From: Anaerolineae bacterium
GTDB lineage: Bacteria > Chloroflexota > Anaerolineae > JACIWP01
NCBI GenBank assembly: GCA_028275445.1
Contig: JAPWUQ010000001.1
Location: 3,161 to 67,160, forward strand
Direction of reading: 5' to 3'
DNA: 64,000 bases
The notes below the pieces were generated by a model. That model was not told the DNA's origin and ran no database searches. It was given only the letters and a program-made list of their open reading frames with translations. Below are positions 4,500 to 16,297 of the stretch, piece after piece. Numbering within the stretch: position 1 is the first letter of the stretch; each line of letters begins with the position of its first letter. The translations under genes were made by a program, and so were the position numbers.

Positions 4500-4898
4500 T
4501 AATCAAAAACCCCTCGTCCGATCGACGCCCAGCGAGTGCTGGACGTATGACGGGACGAGGGGTTTGCAACCACCCCGCGGTGCCACCCGAATTAGGCGGC
4601 CGGCGTACGGCTGGAAACAAAAAACCCGTCGAGAGACGGGTTTTCATCGGCCGGCCAACCTCTCTCAGCGGATACGAGGACTCGCCATCGGCCCACGGAT
4701 GGGAGCCTGATATCCCGCGCTCTGATAACGGTAGCGTTTCCGGTGCGGACTACTCGGGCGTTACCGCCCTTTCGGCGCACGACTCGCAGGCCCATTCCGC
4801 CGCGTCGTGGACATCGGGCTCGCACCTTCCCCCGACTCTCTGGGTCCCGGTGCGCGGCGTACTCTTCCTGGTCATCGTCTTTGGCATGTGCGATTGTT
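4500..4898 (-). promoter_or_regulatory. T-box riboswitch leader, tRNA-responsive transcription attenuation, upstream of trpE. It contains a Stem III-like hairpin at 4624-4650, the T-box sequence at 4575-4593 and the terminator at 4505-4562.
   Basis: The minus strand reads AAUUCGGGUGGCACCGCGG at 4593-4575, against the T-box consensus AAUUAGGGUGGNACCGCG. A GC hairpin (AAAACCCGUC..GACGGGUUUU) lies about 25 nt upstream and the terminator follows. The 5' domain contains a GAA-UGG-G triplet context (about 4792-4794) that could be the Trp specifier, but it was not folded. Confidence 0.6.
4505..4562 (-). terminator. Intrinsic terminator of the T-box leader. The stem is CCCCUCGUCCCG...CGGACGAGGGG, followed by UUUUU.
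   Basis: On the minus strand an 11-12 bp GC-rich stem (plus-strand 4551-4562 pairing with 4510-4520) is followed by a U5 run (plus-strand 4505-4509 AAAAA). Its 5' arm overlaps sequence immediately 3' of the T-box motif. This is the classic mutually exclusive antiterminator/terminator layout. Confidence 0.6.
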
Positions 4899-4905
4899 GA
4901 ATTAT

Positions 4906-4933
4906 ATTATAGCCGGCCGGCGCCGGCTGTCAA
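4906..4933 (-). promoter_or_regulatory. Sigma70-type promoter for the T-box/trp operon (TTGACA-N16-TATAAT)
   Basis: The minus strand reads cattTGACAgccggcgccggccggcTATAATataat. Perfect -35 and -10 hexamers with a 16-nt spacer. The predicted transcription start is near 4898. Confidence 0.55.
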
Positions 4934-4967: not shown

Positions 4968-5024
4968 GGTGACAGTCACTGATGACAGTCACCGGTGACA
5001 GTCACCTGGCAGGTGACTGTCACC
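4968..5024. repeat. Array of four 11-bp palindromic sites, GTGAC-N-GTCAC, between divergent promoters
   Basis: GTGACAGTCAC at 4969-4979. ATGACAGTCAC at 4982-4992. GTGACAGTCAC at 4995-5005. GTGACTGTCAC at 5013-5023. Spacings are 13, 13 and 18 bp. The same 13-mer GGTGACAGTCACC recurs at 15979-15991. Confidence 0.7.
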
Positions 5025-5045
5025 AAACGGATGATACACCAAATC

Positions 5046-5074
5046 GTGCAGTTCGAGCAAGCCTGTGGTATAAT
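5046..5074 (+). promoter_or_regulatory. Extended -10 promoter (TGGTATAAT) for the 5127 gene
   Basis: tgTGgTATAAT at 5064-5074. The -35 is weak (GTGCAG). Confidence 0.4.
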
Positions 5075-5126
5075 ATGCTAAACGTTTCGGCTCTGTCGGG
5101 TATCCGGATGCCAAGGAGAAAGGTAG

Positions 5127-5867
5127 ATGTCCGCCCCGTTCCGTTTCTTTCCCACGGGTGCGCTGATCTTGCTGGCCGTGATGACAGCGATCAGCGCCGT
5201 GGCCCTGGTGGTGCAGTGGCGAGAGGCGAAGCACGCCCCTTTTTTCCTCCTGCGCTATGAGGCGGCCAAGCGCGCTCGCCGGCTGTTCCTGCTCACGGTC
5301 CTGCTGGTCATTGGCATGGGAATCACCGGTTGGCTGACCATACAATACCTGAGACATCCGACGGGAGCGCCGGCCCGGCCCGCTGTGACGCCGGCGGTCT
5401 TGCCTACGCCGACGACGGCCGGCGGCGAGGCCGGCACCCAACCCCCTCCCACTCCCACGCACACCCGGATGCCCTCTCCCACTCCGACGCCTCCGGTGAC
5501 CCCGACCCCCTCCTCTCGTCCGATGACTCGCTCTCCTGGCGCCAGCTTTACCTTCATCACCTTTGCGCAGGGCGTATCCGCATCCAACGAACCCCTTATG
5601 CCAGGGCAAGTCTTCTCCCTCCCGCTGGAACGGCCGATCTATGCCTTTTTCCGCTTCGCGGAGATGGAAAACGGCACCCCATGGCGGGCAGTATGGCGCA
5701 AAGGCTCGGTGGAGCTGGTATCCGACGAGTTCCAATGGGAGTGGGGGCGCTACGGAACCGCATACGTGTATTTCCTGCCGCCGGGCGGGTTTGATGCCGG
5801 CGCCTATTCCCTGCAGTTGTATATCGGCGATGACCTGCAGTTCGAGGCCAGCTTCGAGGTCCAATAA
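5127..5867 (+). CDS. Hypothetical membrane-anchored protein with a Thr/Pro-rich linker and a C-terminal beta-rich domain
   Basis: 246 aa. AGGAGA RBS. A transmembrane segment lies near the N-terminus and a TPTPT linker follows. The C-terminal domain (..PIYAFFRFAEMENGTPWRAVWRK...YSLQLYIGDDLQFEASFEV) resembles the C-terminal domain of the lipoprotein at 32861-33265. Confidence 0.6.
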   Translation: MSAPFRFFPTGALILLAVMTAISAVALVVQWREAKHAPFFLLRYEAAKRARRLFLLTVLLVIGMGITGWLTIQYLRHPTGAPARPAVTPAVLPTPTTAGGEAGTQPPPTPTHTRMPSPTPTPPVTPTPSSRPMTRSPGASFTFITFAQGVSASNEPLMPGQVFSLPLERPIYAFFRFAEMENGTPWRAVWRKGSVELVSDEFQWEWGRYGTAYVYFLPPGGFDAGAYSLQLYIGDDLQFEASFEVQ

Positions 5868-6311: not shown

Positions 6312-8513
6312 ATGCACCAACCGCATCCGCGCGATCCTGGACACGGCCGCTGGGTCCGGCTCGGCATATGCGCCGGCCTGCTCATGGCCGGCATCCTGGC
6401 CTTTTCCCTTCTTTACATCCCACCCGCCTCCCTGGCCGTACCGCCCACCGCACATACCTTCTACGGGACGGTACAGCTCAGCGGCCAGAACGTCCCAGAC
6501 GGCACGCTCATCACCGCATATGTGTATGATGGGAGCAACATTGTTATCTGCGGCACCACTACGACTTTCACGCCGGCCCCGCCGGCGCCGCAGGTTTCTG
6601 TGTACACCCTGCCCGTGACCGGCGATGACCCCGAGACTTCCAACAAAGAGGGCGCGGCCGAAGGCGATACCGTCCATTTCCGCATCGGCCCGTGGGATAA
6701 CGGCGTGGACGCGGATCAGACCGGCATCTGGCATTCCGCCGATTTCACGGAGCTGAACCTGACCGGCACTGCACTCCCGACGCCGACCCCTACCCATACG
6801 AATTCGCCCACCGCCACCCCCACCGGCCCGACACCGACCTTTACGCCGACGCACACCCACACCCCAACGCCCACGGCAACAGCGACGCATACCCCCACCC
6901 CCACCGTCAGCCCGACGCCAACCGGCCCGACCCCTACGCCCACGCCTTCTCCGATGCCGACCTTTGTCTGCCTCCAGCAGGGGAGCGCCGGCTATACCGG
7001 GACCACGGATACCTACCTGGACCTGGCCAACCCCACCACTCCGTATGGCTCGGCCAATAAGATGTACGTGAAGACCCAAGAGATCGTCAACTCGTTGGTG
7101 CGGTTTGATCTGAGCAACCTGCCGGCGAACATCACCGTCGTCACCGCCACCATGAAGATACTCGTGCTGGACCGCACCCCGGATAAGCCCATCACCCTGC
7201 GCGCCTACCGCGTCGCGAAGCACTGGAACGAGGACGAGGCCACCTGGTACAACGCCACCTCCACCACCCTCTGGTCGGCGCCCGGCTGTCAAGCCCCCGG
7301 CGCGGATTACTCGGATATCGGCGTGGTCGAGCTGGCCGGCTTCGACGGGGAGGGGGTCTGGGCCACCTTTGACCTGACGAATATGGTGCGCCATTGGGTC
7401 ACCTATCCCGCGGAAAACCACGGGGTAGTGATCAAGGGATATCGTTATCAAGACCAGACCACCACATACACCTTCTGGTCCTCCGAGGTCTCCAATGTCG
7501 GACTGCGGCCCCAGCTCTGCGTCGGCTACCTGATGCCGACCCCGACACCCACGGCCACTCCAACCAACACGCCGACCTTCACCCCCACACCCACGCCGAC
7601 CCATACCGCCACGCCAACGGCCACGCCGACCCCGACCAATACCATGACGCCCACGCCCACCTCTACGGCCACTCCTACCACCGGCATCATCCGGGGACTG
7701 GTATGGAATGACCAGAACGGCGATGCGGTGCGGCAGGAGGGCGAGCCGCCGCTCGCCGGCGTCACCATCGGCATCCGCTACCTGGGCATCGAGTTCGACA
7801 CCCGGGTGACCGCCGGCGATGGCTCCTTCGTCTTCGCCGGCCTGCTCCCCGGCGATTACACCGTGCGCGCCTACGATATCCCTGGCTTCGCCTGGACCAC
7901 CCCCAATATGGCCATCATCCCGGTGCAGGCCAACACCACCAACTTCATCGAGTTCGGGGCCTGGATACCGCCCACCGCTACCGCCACCCCGACGGCGACC
8001 AGCACGGCCACCAGCACCGCCACGCCGACGCCGACACCCACTGCTACGCCCACCCCGTGTCCGGACGCCTATGAGCCGGACGACAGCATGCTCCAGGCCA
8101 AATGGATCGAGGCCGGCGGCCAGCCCCAGACGCATAACCATCATCAGTCCGGCGATGTGGACTACCTGAAGTTCGTGGGCATTGCCGGCCAGACCTTCCG
8201 CATCCGCACCTTTGCCCTGGGCGGCGCAGGGAACGACACCGTCCTGACCCTGCTGGACAGCGCCGGCGCGGTCCTCGCCCAGAACGACGATGACCCGCTG
8301 AACCCGCCGGCGTCGCGCATTGACTTCACCTGCCCGGAGACCGGCACCTATTTCCTGCGCGTGGAGCAGAAATCGCCGGCGGTGGGCGGGTGCAGTATCA
8401 CCTATCAGATAGAGGTGCGCACCTGGGTGCCCACCCCCACGCCCACCCCGACCCCCACGCTGGCCAAACGCGGCTGGCTGCCGCTGGTGATCAAGGACGT
8501 ACAGGGAAGGTAG
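6312..8513 (+). CDS. Large secreted multidomain protein with Thr/Pro-rich linkers, a carboxypeptidase-regulatory-like domain and a C-terminal pre-peptidase (PPC) domain
   Basis: 733 aa. AGGAGG RBS. N-terminal signal anchor. Repeated PTPTPT linkers. GDYTVRAY beta-sandwich. C-terminal CPDAYEPDDS...DVDYLKF...TFRIRT...DTVLTLLDSAGAVLAQNDDD matches a bacterial PPC domain. The central block is DNRLRE-like, but that assignment is not certain. Confidence 0.8.
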   Translation: MHQPHPRDPGHGRWVRLGICAGLLMAGILAFSLLYIPPASLAVPPTAHTFYGTVQLSGQNVPDGTLITAYVYDGSNIVICGTTTTFTPAPPAPQVSVYTLPVTGDDPETSNKEGAAEGDTVHFRIGPWDNGVDADQTGIWHSADFTELNLTGTALPTPTPTHTNSPTATPTGPTPTFTPTHTHTPTPTATATHTPTPTVSPTPTGPTPTPTPSPMPTFVCLQQGSAGYTGTTDTYLDLANPTTPYGSANKMYVKTQEIVNSLVRFDLSNLPANITVVTATMKILVLDRTPDKPITLRAYRVAKHWNEDEATWYNATSTTLWSAPGCQAPGADYSDIGVVELAGFDGEGVWATFDLTNMVRHWVTYPAENHGVVIKGYRYQDQTTTYTFWSSEVSNVGLRPQLCVGYLMPTPTPTATPTNTPTFTPTPTPTHTATPTATPTPTNTMTPTPTSTATPTTGIIRGLVWNDQNGDAVRQEGEPPLAGVTIGIRYLGIEFDTRVTAGDGSFVFAGLLPGDYTVRAYDIPGFAWTTPNMAIIPVQANTTNFIEFGAWIPPTATATPTATSTATSTATPTPTPTATPTPCPDAYEPDDSMLQAKWIEAGGQPQTHNHHQSGDVDYLKFVGIAGQTFRIRTFALGGAGNDTVLTLLDSAGAVLAQNDDDPLNPPASRIDFTCPETGTYFLRVEQKSPAVGGCSITYQIEVRTWVPTPTPTPTPTLAKRGWLPLVIKDVQGR

Positions 8514-14604: not shown

Positions 14605-14991
14605 ATGATGCGCAGGATCAGGATCACCGCCGGCGGCATCAGCGTGACCGCCGAGCTGAACGATTCCCCGACCGCTGATGCGATCTGGAACGCCCTGCCG
14701 TTGGAGGCACGGGGGAGCACCTGGGGCGATGAAATCTACTTCTCCATCCCCGTGCATCTGCCGCAGGCCAGGGACGCGAAGGAAGTGGTCGAGCTGGGTG
14801 ATCTGGGATACTGGCCGCCGGGGAACGCCTTCTGCATCTTCTATGGGCCGACGCCGGCCAGCCTGGGGAACGAGATCCGGCCGGCCAGCCCAGTCAACGT
14901 CTTCGGCCGCATCGTGGATGACCCGACCGTGTTCCGCAAACTGCGCGGCAGTGTCAACGTGCGGGTGGAGCGCCTGGAAGAGCGGTCTTGA
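14605..14991 (+). CDS. Cyclophilin-like fold protein (DUF3830/TM1367-like)
   Basis: 128 aa. IRITAGGISVTAELNDSPTADAIWNALP...GDLGYWPPGNAFCIFYG matches the conserved pattern of this family. Confidence 0.7.
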   Translation: MMRRIRITAGGISVTAELNDSPTADAIWNALPLEARGSTWGDEIYFSIPVHLPQARDAKEVVELGDLGYWPPGNAFCIFYGPTPASLGNEIRPASPVNVFGRIVDDPTVFRKLRGSVNVRVERLEERS

Positions 14992-15026
14992 CAGACACGG
15001 GGACAATATTTTCACAGGAGGACGCC

Positions 15027-15953
15027 ATGAACAGGGGCTGGGATGGCATTTGCAAGGTGGGCATCGTGCAGTTCATGATCTTCCCCGAGGTGATGCGCGG
15101 GGAGGGGCCGGTGGTGGAGACCATCACGAAGATCGCCGCGGATGACTTCTTCGGCGCCATGGAGATCACCCATATCGCGGACCCGGAGGCGCGCCGGCAA
15201 GTGGCCGGCATCCTCGCCGCCTCGCACATGGCCCTGGGCTTCGGCGCCCAGCCCATGCTCCTCGCGAACAAGCTGGACCTGAACCATCCCGAGGAGGCGG
15301 AGCGGCGCAAAGCGGTGGACCTGATGAAGGCGGCCATAGATGAAGCGGCCGAGCTGGGCATCGGGCGGGTGGCGTTTTTGAGCGGCAAGGACCCCGGCGA
15401 GGCCCAGCGCGAGCGCGCCCTGGACCTGTTGGTGGATTCCACAAAGGAGCTGTGCGAGTACGCCAAAAGCAGGGGTGTGTTCCTGATCTGTGAGACCTTC
15501 GATTATGACGTGGAGAAGCGCGCTCTGATTGGGCCGGCGCGGCTGGCGGCGCGCTATGCCGAGCGGGTGAAAGCGCAGTACGACAACTTCGGCCTGATGT
15601 ATGACTTGAGCCACGTCCCTCAGCTTCGCGAGGACTCGCTGGAAGGGCTGTCCATCCTGAAGCCGCACTTGGCGCACGTGCACGTGGGCAACTGCCAACT
15701 GCGCAACCCGAACCATCCTTCCTACGGCGACCAGCATCCGCGCTTCGGCATCCCCGACGGCGAGAACGATGTCCCCGAGCTGACAGCCTTCCTGAAAGCG
15801 CTGTTCCAGGTGGGGTATCTCCAGGAACATCCGAAGGGAGACCTGCCCGTCGTGGCCTTTGAGGTGAAGCCGATGAAGGGAGAGCTTTCGGAGGTGGTCC
15901 TGGCGAATGCCAAGCGCGTGTGGCGCGAGGCCTGGGGCCGGCTGGAGCTGTAG
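15027..15953 (+). CDS. Sugar phosphate isomerase/epimerase (xylose-isomerase-like TIM barrel) family protein
   Basis: Start placed at the ATG at 15027 with AGGAGGA RBS. TIM-barrel motifs are present (FLICETFDY, HVHVGNCQL...). The listed ORF begins 39 nt earlier and overlaps the previous gene. Confidence 0.8.
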   Translation: MNRGWDGICKVGIVQFMIFPEVMRGEGPVVETITKIAADDFFGAMEITHIADPEARRQVAGILAASHMALGFGAQPMLLANKLDLNHPEEAERRKAVDLMKAAIDEAAELGIGRVAFLSGKDPGEAQRERALDLLVDSTKELCEYAKSRGVFLICETFDYDVEKRALIGPARLAARYAERVKAQYDNFGLMYDLSHVPQLREDSLEGLSILKPHLAHVHVGNCQLRNPNHPSYGDQHPRFGIPDGENDVPELTAFLKALFQVGYLQEHPKGDLPVVAFEVKPMKGELSEVVLANAKRVWREAWGRLEL

Positions 15954-15978
15954 CTCCGTCGTTTCCGGTGGCACTTCA

Positions 15979-16010
15979 GGTGACAGTCACCATACAGGTG
16001 ACTGCCACCT
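15979..16010. repeat. Second locus carrying the GTGACAGTCAC palindrome (one perfect and one degenerate copy)
   Basis: GGTGACAGTCACC at 15979-15991 and GGTGACTGCCACC at 15997-16009. Lies in the isomerase/larA intergenic region. Confidence 0.6.
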
Positions 16011-16160
16011 GTTTGTCTCTCCCGCAGAGCATGGTAGAATAGCAAAGGAAAGAAAGGGTCTGGCTTGCGAGCGCGCCAGGGTTTGAAGCTTGAGTTTCAG
16101 TGAAAGCTTCCCCGGTGCCCCTATAGTAGGAGGATGCAGGGGTATCACCCCTACCCCTGG

Positions 16161-16186
16161 CCCCTTCCCCGCCGGCGGGGAAGGGG
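16161..16186. other. GC-rich palindrome, CCCCTTCCCCGCCGGCGGGGAAGGGG, followed by GTTTGGGG. Possible weak terminator of the isomerase gene.
   Basis: Perfect 26-nt palindrome with a GCCGGC centre. Only three U follow it. Confidence 0.3.
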
Positions 16187-16297
16187 TTTGGGGATGGGGT
16201 CATTCGACCCAGGTCTTATGAGCATGCTGTCTCCAGCATTCTTACCTGATGATAGTACAACGGCCGTGGGCTGTGTCCCCGGGCCGGGAGGAAAACC

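What the first reader, a model, noticed from the sequence alone, without database searches (positions are those of the whole stretch)
4968..5024. Array of four GTGAC-N-GTCAC palindromes between divergent promoters, repeated 11 kb away
Four copies of an 11-bp palindrome sit in the 110-bp gap between the trp/T-box promoter (minus, -35 at 4928-4933) and the promoter of the 5127 gene. Three copies are at 13-bp spacing (GTGACAGTCAC at 4969 and 4995, ATGACAGTCAC at 4982). The fourth is 18 bp further (GTGACTGTCAC at 5013). The exact 13-mer GGTGACAGTCACC occurs again at 15979-15991, with a degenerate partner (GGTGACTGCCACC) 18 bp downstream, in another intergenic region. A specific GC-neutral 13-mer is expected far less than once in 64 kb, so this is a real motif. 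It may be a multimeric operator for an unidentified dimeric regulator that controls several promoters. Alternatively it may be a short dispersed palindromic repeat family. The 13-bp phasing is unusual for face-of-helix binding and suggests overlapping half-sites.
Basis: seen in the sequence. Interest (0 to 1): 0.6.

Follow-up and report, generated by a model that had tools for sequence, protein, structure and literature searches.

The report
Mobile palindromic repeat, not an operator
The four palindromes are copies of a small hairpin-forming repeat that is scattered between genes in many Chloroflexota genomes and travels with its own dedicated transposase (a REP/RAYT system); they are not the binding sites of a gene regulator, so this is an ordinary, if neat, finding.

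Summary
Four GTGAC-N-GTCAC palindromes lie at 4968-5024, and a fifth and sixth at 15979-16009, far above chance.

The real unit is not the 11-13-bp palindrome. It is a 31-35-nt hairpin, (C)A-GGTGACAGTCACC-T-nnn-A-GGTGACTGTCACC-T(G). The same element, with fixed 18-bp arm spacing and a free loop, occurs in dozens of Chloroflexota MAGs.
- It is almost always extragenic (5 of 58 copies inside ORFs, against 89% ORF coverage).
- About half the copies lie within 30 bp after a stop codon.
- They sit next to unrelated genes (127 Pfam families among 99 neighbours, none enriched).

The element flanks a ~198-aa HUH/Y1 transposase gene of the REP-associated (RAYT) type. Related RAYTs carry hairpins of the same architecture but different sequence.

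At site 1 the array is missing from relatives whose downstream promoter is conserved. Site 2 is kept, decaying, in 91-92% identical relatives.

Verdict: a REP/TIR-type repeat family with a cognate RAYT, a new member of a known kind. The operator reading is not supported. No RAYT lies in the window itself, and genome-wide copy number could not be counted.

The parts
4968..4980 (.). Arm copy 1, GGTGACAGTCACT (tandem extra arm, 1 mismatch)
   Evidence: In strains L001/L003 this copy reads GGTGACAGTCATC.
4981..4993 (.). Arm copy 2, GATGACAGTCACC (tandem extra arm, 1 mismatch)
   Evidence: It is a perfect GGTGACAGTCACC in strains L001/L003.
4994..5024 (.). Complete REP-type hairpin unit: GGTGACAGTCACC (4994-5006), loop TGGCA (5007-5011), GGTGACTGTCACC (5012-5024)
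   Evidence: Both 13-nt arms are identical to those of the family consensus built from 57 copies, and the loop fits its T-nnn-A pattern. As single-stranded DNA it folds into a 14-bp stem at -16.3 kcal/mol, z = -6.0. The whole array folds at -25.8 kcal/mol, z = -7.05.
15977..16011 (.). Second, single REP-type hairpin with canonical CA...TG flanks: CA-GGTGACAGTCACC-ATACA-GGTGACTGCCACC-TG (one arm mismatch)
   Evidence: -14.8 kcal/mol, z = -5.6. It starts 23 nt after the stop codon of the AP_endonuc_2 gene (15951-15953). It is present with different decay in relatives L205 and L206.
4906..4933 (-). trp operon promoter TTGACA-16-TATAAT (context, not part of the repeat). The array lies about 34 bp upstream of its -35 element.
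4548..4884 (-). T-box leader of trpE (context)
   Evidence: RF00230, 85.5 bits, E 6.6e-19.
5066..5074 (+). Extended -10 element TGgTATAAT of the 246-aa membrane-protein gene (5127-5867) (context). Homology with relatives starts at about 5042, 18 bp after the array.
16013..16040 (+). Promoter-like TTGTCT-16-TAGAAT (with TG) of the larA-like gene, directly abutting the site 2 hairpin (context)
   Evidence: It is conserved in L205, L206 and L207.

Best explanation
The palindromes are copies of a repetitive extragenic palindrome (REP-type, or in Di Nocera's terms TIR-type) element. The unit is a 31-35-nt sequence, (C)A-GGTGACAGTCACC-T-nnn-A-GGTGACTGTCACC-T(G). In single-stranded DNA or RNA it folds into a 13-16-bp stem with a short variable loop.

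Such units are dispersed between genes in Chloroflexota genomes. They also flank, on both sides, the gene of a ~198-aa HUH/Y1 transposase of the REP-associated (RAYT / TnpA-REP) type.

By analogy with E. coli TnpA-REP (inferred, not shown here), the RAYT recognises the folded hairpin on single-stranded DNA, cuts and rejoins at its foot, and thereby spreads and maintains the copies.

Each 13-nt arm of this family is itself a palindrome, so the unit is at once an inverted and a direct repeat. This favours slippage. It explains the two extra arms at 13-bp spacing at site 1 (4968-4993) next to one complete unit (4994-5024). Site 2 (15977-16011) is a single, older, decaying unit.

The array was not placed there to regulate the trp promoter or the promoter of the 5127 gene. 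It occupies a permissive gap at a synteny breakpoint. Any effect on neighbouring transcription would be secondary; examples are a 3' hairpin or terminator at site 2, or cruciform extrusion between the divergent promoters at site 1.
For: Shown directly:
1. The same 31-mer with fixed 18-bp arm spacing occurs in dozens of Chloroflexota MAGs (Anaerolineae/Anaerolineales, Thermoflexales, Caldilineaceae, Promineifilaceae, Herpetosiphon), with several copies per MAG.
2. In the consensus of 57 copies the stem extends to A...T and C...G pairs while the three loop bases are free. This is hairpin-type conservation.
3. Only 5 of 58 copies lie inside ORFs, against 88.8% ORF coverage (P = 1e-44). 29 of 54 lie within 30 bp after a stop codon.
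4. The 99 flanking ORFs hit 127 Pfam families with none enriched. The only recurrent informative family is Y1_Tnp.
5. Y1_Tnp genes are flanked by the element in L006, L032 and L076, and, at 16-bp spacing, in the Actinomycetes locus L069.
6. These proteins best match NCBIfam NF047646 'REP-associated tyrosine transposase' (75.8 and 70.4 bits, cut-off 80). Their best match in the PDB is E. coli TnpA-REP 4ER8 (E 7e-9, against 0.79 for an IS200-type transposase). The HUH motif and the catalytic Tyr are conserved.
7. An independent scan starting from the protein found six close RAYT homologues (L125-L130), all flanked on both sides by the motif. More distant homologues are flanked on both sides by hairpins of the same architecture but different sequence, which indicates co-variation of RAYT and REP.
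8. Two further RAYTs (L209, L210) are likewise flanked. JGI names many members of this protein family 'REP element-mobilizing transposase RayT'.
9. The site 1 array is absent from relatives in which the downstream promoter is conserved (L121, L122, L123/L124). Homology starts at window position 5042.
10. Strains that are 99% identical differ inside the array.
11. Tandem partial duplications of arms (11 or 13 bp) recur in other members of the family.
Against: - No RAYT gene lies in the 64-kb window (tblastn), and I could not show one in this organism's genome.
Two RAYT-bearing contigs have no copies in about 10 kb away from the RAYT, so some genomes carry only the RAYT-flanking copies.
- The element lacks the GTAG or CGTC tag of the classical REP superfamilies.
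- The RAYTs score just under the NCBIfam cut-off.
- Site 2 abuts a conserved promoter and is retained in relatives at 91-92% identity, so a local host function cannot be excluded.
- Transposase action on this hairpin is inferred from E. coli TnpA-REP and was not tested.
Confidence: 0.85

Rival explanations
1. Operator array. A homodimeric helix-turn-helix regulator binds each 13-bp palindrome and co-regulates the divergent trp and 5127-gene promoters, the larA-like promoter, and similar sites elsewhere.
For: - The sites are perfect dyads lying between divergent promoters.
- Site 2 abuts the -35 element of a conserved promoter and is retained in relatives at 91-92% identity.
- The motif is conserved across a phylum, as binding sites of global regulators can be.
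Against: - There is no regulon: 127 Pfam families among 99 neighbouring genes, none enriched.
- 7 of 46 classifiable copies lie between convergent genes, and about half lie within 30 bp after a stop codon, often filling the whole gap between co-directional genes.
- The array is absent upstream of the conserved orthologous promoter in three relatives.
- At site 1 the array lies upstream of both core promoters, at roughly -56 to -126 from the inferred transcription starts.
- The sequence co-varies with a flanking transposase rather than with any regulator.
- No regulator gene lies next to either site in the window.
Confidence: 0.04
2. Primarily an RNA-level element. The hairpin is kept because it acts as an intrinsic terminator or a 3'-end mRNA-stabilising stem-loop between transcription units.
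For: - The stems are strong.
- Half of the copies lie within 30 bp after a stop codon.
- At site 2 the hairpin follows the last gene of an apparent operon. In relatives L205 and L206 it is followed by ATTTTGTTTT. A terminator-like site is called at 15994-16012.
Against: - Terminators do not need an identical 31-nt sequence across orders.
- Site 1 lies between two divergent promoters, where no transcript is expected to end (0 terminator-like sites there).
- Most copies lack a T-tract.
- The sequence identity is explained by the RAYT association.

This is best seen as a possible secondary, co-opted effect of some copies, as is known for E. coli REPs (from established knowledge).
Confidence: 0.08
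3. Chance or compositional palindromes, or an assembly artefact.
For: None beyond the general frequency of short palindromes in GC-rich DNA.
Against: - 8 hits against 1.43 expected, with 0 of 100 shuffles reaching 8.
- The same array appears in five independent assemblies from JGI, ENA and Logan, with single-nucleotide variants.
- More than 115 matching stretches were found in genome collections.
Confidence: 0.01

Closest known systems
REP / BIME elements and their RAYT (TnpA-REP), as in E. coli, Pseudomonas and Stenotrophomonas; 'REPtron' organisation
   Same: - It is a short extragenic hairpin-forming palindrome present in many copies, often in clusters.
- A single small HUH/Y1 transposase gene is flanked on both sides by the same palindrome.
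- Each RAYT lineage has its own REP sequence.
- The best structural relative of the protein is 4ER8, TnpA-REP.
   Different: - It has no GTAG (or CGTC) tetranucleotide at the hairpin foot.
- The stem is nearly perfect, and each 13-nt arm is itself a palindrome.
- The same sequence is shared across several orders of a phylum, whereas classical REPs are usually species- or genus-specific.
- The RAYT scores just under the NCBIfam equivalog cut-off.
TIRtrons / TIRYTs of Di Nocera et al. 2013 (PMC3733652): RAYT-like genes flanked by non-GTAG inverted repeats. Some are self-complementary or 'double palindromic', and some form moderately abundant repeat families arranged as dimers or clusters.
   Same: - It is not GTAG-tagged.
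- Its flanking repeats are self-complementary and are also found dispersed, as dimers and clusters (for the paper's description; for this family).
   Different: - That paper mentions Chloroflexi only for GTAG repeats.
- This sequence family was not found by string search in the paper library.
- Here the flanking hairpins have a fixed 33-nt architecture across a very large RAYT clade (more than 6,000 proteins at E <= 1e-30).
REPINs (REP doublets forming hairpins; Bertels and Rainey 2011)
   Same: It consists of two inverted copies of a short unit separated by a short spacer, which together form the hairpin that behaves as the repeat unit.
   Different: In REPINs each REP is itself an imperfect hairpin of about 20-25 nt and the doublet is about 100 nt. 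Here the whole unit is about 33 nt, and the 'inverted' arms differ only at their central base.

Membership tests
REP (repetitive extragenic palindrome) elements | Short (about 20-40 nt) palindrome able to form a stem-loop | tested here: met
   31-35 nt with a 13-16-bp stem. Folding energy as DNA is -16.3 kcal/mol (site 1 unit) and -14.8 kcal/mol (site 2), z = -6.0 and -5.6. The stem is conserved and the loop is free in 57 copies.
REP (repetitive extragenic palindrome) elements | Extragenic location irrespective of neighbouring gene function | tested here: met
   5 of 58 copies lie inside ORFs against 88.8% ORF coverage, P = 1e-44. Neighbours hit 127 Pfam families with none enriched. Both window sites are intergenic.
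REP (repetitive extragenic palindrome) elements | High copy number within a genome (tens to hundreds) | tested here: inconclusive
   Several perfect copies per MAG lie on different contigs, for example at least 6 in PMV_2.24 and at least 5 in each of AUK198 and Thermoflexales MAG-30. The window has 2 loci in 64 kb. Two RAYT-bearing contigs have none in about 10 kb beyond the RAYT flanks.
REP (repetitive extragenic palindrome) elements | A RAYT gene flanked by the same palindromes (REPtron) | tested here: met
   Met in L006, L032, L076, L069, L125-L130, L209 and L210. Not shown for the window's own genome: there is no RAYT in the 64 kb.
REP (repetitive extragenic palindrome) elements | Conserved GTAG (or CGTC) tag at one end of the hairpin (Di Nocera superfamilies; E. 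coli cleavage context) | tested here: not met
   The consensus CA-GGTGAC...GTCACC-TG contains no GTAG/CTAC or CGTC/GACG. It is therefore not a member of the GTAG or CGTC superfamilies and is closer to the 'TIR' class of PMC3733652.
RAYT / TnpA-REP (HUH Y1 transposases, class 2) | HUH motif and a single catalytic tyrosine in a core of about 150 aa | tested here: met
   H63-Y64-H65 and Y123 (in the motif RYIHxNP) are invariant in alignments A2 and A4. Pfam Y1_Tnp scores 27.7-35.4 bits, above the cut-off of 23.
RAYT / TnpA-REP (HUH Y1 transposases, class 2) | Closer to RAYT than to IS200/IS605 TnpA | tested here: met
   The only NCBIfam hit is NF047646 REP_Tyr_transpos (75.8 and 70.4 bits, just below the cut-off of 80). 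In the PDB, 4ER8 TnpA-REP scores E 7e-9 against 2F4F at E 0.79. JGI names many family members RayT.
RAYT / TnpA-REP (HUH Y1 transposases, class 2) | Binds and cleaves its REP hairpin in single-stranded DNA | not testable with these tools
   This needs biochemistry. It is inferred here from E. coli TnpA-REP.
Transcription-factor operator / regulon motif | Sites positioned at promoters of a functionally coherent, conserved gene set | tested here: not met
   The array is absent upstream of the conserved orthologous promoter in L121-L124.
Rfam RNA families (including Chloroflexi-1 and other structured repeats) | Match to a curated covariance model | tested here: not met
   No family reaches its gathering score in the window. 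Only chance-level miRNA hits overlie 4968-5024 in E-value mode.

The most novel reading that the evidence does not exclude
The window's element may be one member of a large, so far unsystematised REP superfamily that co-evolves with a RAYT clade of more than 6,000 proteins, found in Chloroflexota and also seen in Actinomycetota. Its units share a fixed 33-nt architecture (A + 13-nt arm + T, 3-nt loop, mirror arm), lack the GTAG tag, and usually have arms that are themselves palindromes: 21 of 32 families have at least 80% internal pairing, against 12% of shuffled arms. Such nested dyad symmetry would imply a recognition or propagation mode different from E. coli TnpA-REP. Possibilities include a choice between one long and two short hairpins, or binding to the duplex or cruciform form. 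It would also make these repeats prone to slippage and array formation at promoter-proximal gaps and synteny breakpoints.
Probability: 0.25. Interest if true: 0.5.

Novelty: new member of a known kind. Interest (0 to 1): 0.3.

Why it matters
The result removes a false lead. A striking, statistically real palindrome array between two promoters is selfish or domesticated repeat DNA, not a new regulator's operator.

Practical consequences:
- The family fragments short-read assemblies of Chloroflexota. Contigs start or end at the element, and most contigs carrying this RAYT are about 1 kb.
- It marks synteny breakpoints.
- It can mimic operators and terminators in motif scans.

Scientifically it adds a clear REP-RAYT pair outside the Proteobacteria, where these systems have mostly been studied. 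Its nested-palindrome design could be used to test how RAYTs recognise their substrates.

Tried and rejected
- **Rfam search.** Nothing reached a gathering score in the window. Only chance-level hits overlie the array in E-value mode.
- **Literature string search for GTGACAGTCAC.** It returned only primers and miRNA constructs.
- **Regulon idea.** Rejected from the diversity of neighbouring genes and the placement statistics.
- **Integron attC sites.** I considered this because several small co-directional genes in L006 are each followed by the element. I rejected it because there is no GTTRRRY core, the window copies sit among housekeeping genes, and one of the 'cassettes' is the RAYT itself.
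- **Resemblances recalled from memory.** These were the MqsA-type ACCT-N3-AGGT palindrome, C-protein boxes of restriction-modification systems, CRP-like sites, sigma-54 promoters and DNA uptake sequences. None fits the placement statistics or the transposase association, and none was tested further.
- **Pure terminator reading.** Rejected as the primary explanation (no terminator-like site at site 1).
- **RAYT in the window.** A tblastn search found none.
- **The ~190-bp extra segment in the larA-like leader.** I checked whether it is a repeat; it has no other copy in the window or in the loci.

Full report
**1. The observation**

The sequence is as described.
- Site 1 holds GGTGACAGTCACT (4968-4980), GATGACAGTCACC (4981-4993), GGTGACAGTCACC (4994-5006) and, after TGGCA, GGTGACTGTCACC (5012-5024).
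- Site 2 holds GGTGACAGTCACC (15979-15991), ATACA and GGTGACTGCCACC (15997-16009).

The 11-mer core with up to one mismatch occurs 8 times, against 1.43 expected, and no shuffle out of 100 reached 8. At two mismatches nothing beyond these six copies stands out.

The stated context also holds.
- A consensus promoter, TTGACA-16-TATAAT, lies at 4933-4906 on the minus strand.
- It drives a T-box leader at 4548-4884 (85.5 bits, just under the Rfam gathering score) and then trpE, trpGD and trpC.
- On the other side, a TGgTATAAT element at 5066-5074 precedes a 246-aa membrane protein with no Pfam family, followed by a glutaredoxin.

The window is 66% G+C. The same locus occurs in five independent metagenome assemblies.

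**2. The real unit**

Copy 4 is the reverse complement of copy 3. At both sites the pair forms one 31-nt inverted repeat with arms 18 bp apart.

In Chloroflexota MAGs the spacing is always 18 bp. These MAGs include Anaerolineae/Anaerolineales, Thermoflexales (including Thermoflexus), Caldilineaceae, Promineifilaceae and Herpetosiphon. The match is palindromic over 31-35 bp, and several MAGs contribute copies on different contigs.

The consensus of 57 copies is CA-GGTGACAGTCACC-T-nnn-A-GGTGACTGTCACC-TG. The flanking A/T and C/G positions pair, and the three central bases are free. That is the pattern of a conserved stem-loop.

As single-stranded DNA the site 1 unit folds at -16.3 kcal/mol, site 2 at -14.8 kcal/mol and the whole array at -25.8 kcal/mol (z = -7).

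Other phyla (Actinomycetota, Planctomycetota, Omnitrophota and others) carry the same 13-mer at other spacings of 15-21 bp.

**3. Where the copies sit**

Among 58 perfect Chloroflexota copies, 5 lie inside long ORFs although ORFs cover 88.8% of those loci (P = 1e-44). In addition, 29 of 54 lie within 30 bp after a stop codon.

The flanking gene orientations are 31 co-directional, 8 divergent and 7 convergent, about what random intergenic placement gives.

The 99 flanking ORFs hit 127 Pfam families and none is enriched. This is not a regulon. My ORF calls are crude (longest non-overlapping ORFs), so the individual distances are approximate. The contrasts are large enough not to depend on that.

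**4. The transposase link**

The only recurrent informative family among the neighbours was Y1_Tnp.
- In L006 a 194-aa HUH/Y1 gene (5007-5591, minus strand) has the element 7 bp after its stop, a single arm 19 bp before its start, and an array further upstream.
- L032 and L076 have 60-65% identical proteins next to the element.
- The Actinomycetes locus L069 has a 30% identical one, flanked on both sides by the 16-bp-spaced version.

The proteins keep the HUH motif and the catalytic Tyr. Their only NCBIfam hit is 'REP-associated tyrosine transposase' (75.8 and 70.4 bits; cut-off 80). Their best solved relative is E. coli TnpA-REP 4ER8 (E 7e-9), not an IS200-type transposase.

I then reversed the test and scanned metagenome contigs for relatives of the protein.
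- The six closest (L125-L130) are all flanked on both sides by GGTGAC[A/T]GTCAC hairpins.
- More distant ones (40-60% identity) are flanked on both sides by hairpins of the same 33-nt architecture but different sequence, for example AGGTGCGACGCACT-, AACCTTGCGAAGGTT- and ACCCTCCCGGAGGTT-.
- Two more close homologues fetched by identity are also flanked. L209 carries ten perfect arms upstream of the gene.

The protein family has more than 6,000 members at E <= 1e-30. JGI names many of them 'REP element-mobilizing transposase RayT'. A gene-specific flanking palindrome that also occurs dispersed in the genome is the defining organisation of REP/RAYT systems.

**5. Comparison with relatives of the window's organism**

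*Site 1.* Orthologues of the 246-aa gene at 89%, 86% and 74% protein identity keep the promoter from window position about 5042 onward. They have no palindromes, and each has a different upstream gene: a CRP/B12-type regulator, SHMT, or an ABC-transporter binding protein. The array therefore lies in lineage-specific DNA at a recurrent synteny breakpoint. Strains 99% identical to the window differ at three positions within the junction of copies 1 and 2.

*Site 2.* Relatives at 91-92% nucleotide identity (L205, L206) keep the element. The left arm is intact and the right arm has decayed differently in each lineage. A 74% relative (L208) lacks it. In L205 and L206 the hairpin is followed by ATTTTGTTTT. 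The window has lost those 16 bp, so the hairpin abuts the -35 element of the conserved larA-like promoter.

Copies thus persist and decay over short evolutionary distances and differ in presence over longer ones, as expected for REP-type repeats. The site 2 data alone do not prove mobility.

**6. Mechanism**

*Shown:* family membership by sequence, extragenic dispersal, hairpin potential, and association and co-variation with a RAYT-type gene.

*Inferred from E. coli TnpA-REP:* the RAYT binds the folded hairpin on single-stranded DNA and cuts and rejoins at its foot, which spreads or maintains copies.

*Inferred from the sequence:* each arm is a palindrome, so the unit is also a direct repeat. 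Slipped mispairing can then add arms. Comparable 11- or 13-bp arm duplications occur in other loci.

Possible secondary effects, none tested, are a 3' hairpin or terminator role at site 2 and cruciform extrusion under the negative supercoiling expected between divergent promoters at site 1.

**7. What is known, and what may be new**

REP/RAYT systems are well described. Di Nocera et al. 2013 (PMC3733652) also describe RAYT-like genes flanked by non-GTAG inverted repeats, some of them self-complementary or double palindromic and some dispersed as dimers or clusters. This is the closest published description. They mention Chloroflexi only for GTAG repeats.

This element lacks GTAG and CGTC, so it is not a member of those two superfamilies. 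I found no paper containing its sequence.

One feature may deserve follow-up. In 21 of 32 distinct hairpin families flanking this RAYT clade the arm is itself a near-palindrome, against 12% of shuffled arms. I classify the finding as a new member of a known kind.

**8. Limits**
- No RAYT was found in the window, and none could be tied to this organism.
- No whole-genome copy count was possible.
- ORF calling in the fetched loci was heuristic.
- The transposition chemistry is by analogy with E. coli TnpA-REP.

Noticed in passing
window 4548-4884 (-): The T-box leader upstream of trpE scores 85.5 bits (E 6.6e-19), below Rfam's gathering score of 93. It is therefore invisible in a gathering-threshold scan.
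   Followed up: partly
window 15207-15298 (-): ARAGORN calls a 92-nt tRNA-Ala (cgc) that lies entirely inside the AP_endonuc_2 ORF (14988-15953). It is probably a false positive.
   Followed up: no
window about 16100-16290: The leader of the larA-like gene carries about 190 bp that relatives at 91-92% identity (L205, L206) lack. The segment includes a 26-nt G+C-rich palindrome at 16161-16186. It has no other copy in the window or in the fetched loci. Its nature is unknown.
   Followed up: partly
window 4978-4984, compared with L001 6877-6883 and L003 9852-9858: Strains 99% identical to the window differ at three positions in the junction of arm copies 1 and 2. All three are C>T or G>A transitions within the canonical CCGG (window CACTGATG, L001/L003 CATCGGTG). 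This is compatible with cytosine deamination in a hairpin loop or at a methylated CCGG, which is speculative.
   Followed up: no
L004 and L005 position 1; L207 position 1: Short-read contigs start exactly at the element (L004 and L005 begin with GTGACAGTCACC; L207 begins just right of site 2). Most contigs carrying this RAYT are only about 1 kb. The repeat appears to fragment assemblies.
   Followed up: partly
window about 5042, compared with L121, L122 and L123: The gene upstream of the 246-aa membrane-protein gene differs in every lineage examined: trp operon, SHMT, ABC-transporter binding protein, or CRP/B12-type regulator. This is a recurrent synteny breakpoint right next to the array.
   Followed up: partly
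L006 2-4171; L129 about 3690 onward; L210 9006-11695; L209 about 10660 onward: RAYT genes of this REP type repeatedly sit next to an Eco57I/MmeI-type DNA methyltransferase gene. In L210 the RAYT lies between two fragments of such a gene. This suggests a conserved genomic position or an insertion into that gene.
   Followed up: no
L209 9583-9983: Ten perfect 13-mers form a tandem array in which the unit also duplicates the ribosome-binding region and first codons of the RAYT gene (…tctctgaaggatatcccatgccctacg…).
   Followed up: no
L008 271-681: A second, more distant Y1_Tnp-like gene is flanked by an unrelated G+C-rich hairpin (gccgccgtcctcggcggcgg). It sits in the same locus as a copy of the GGTGAC element at 7434-7464, so this may be a second REP/RAYT pair in one genome.
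   Followed up: no
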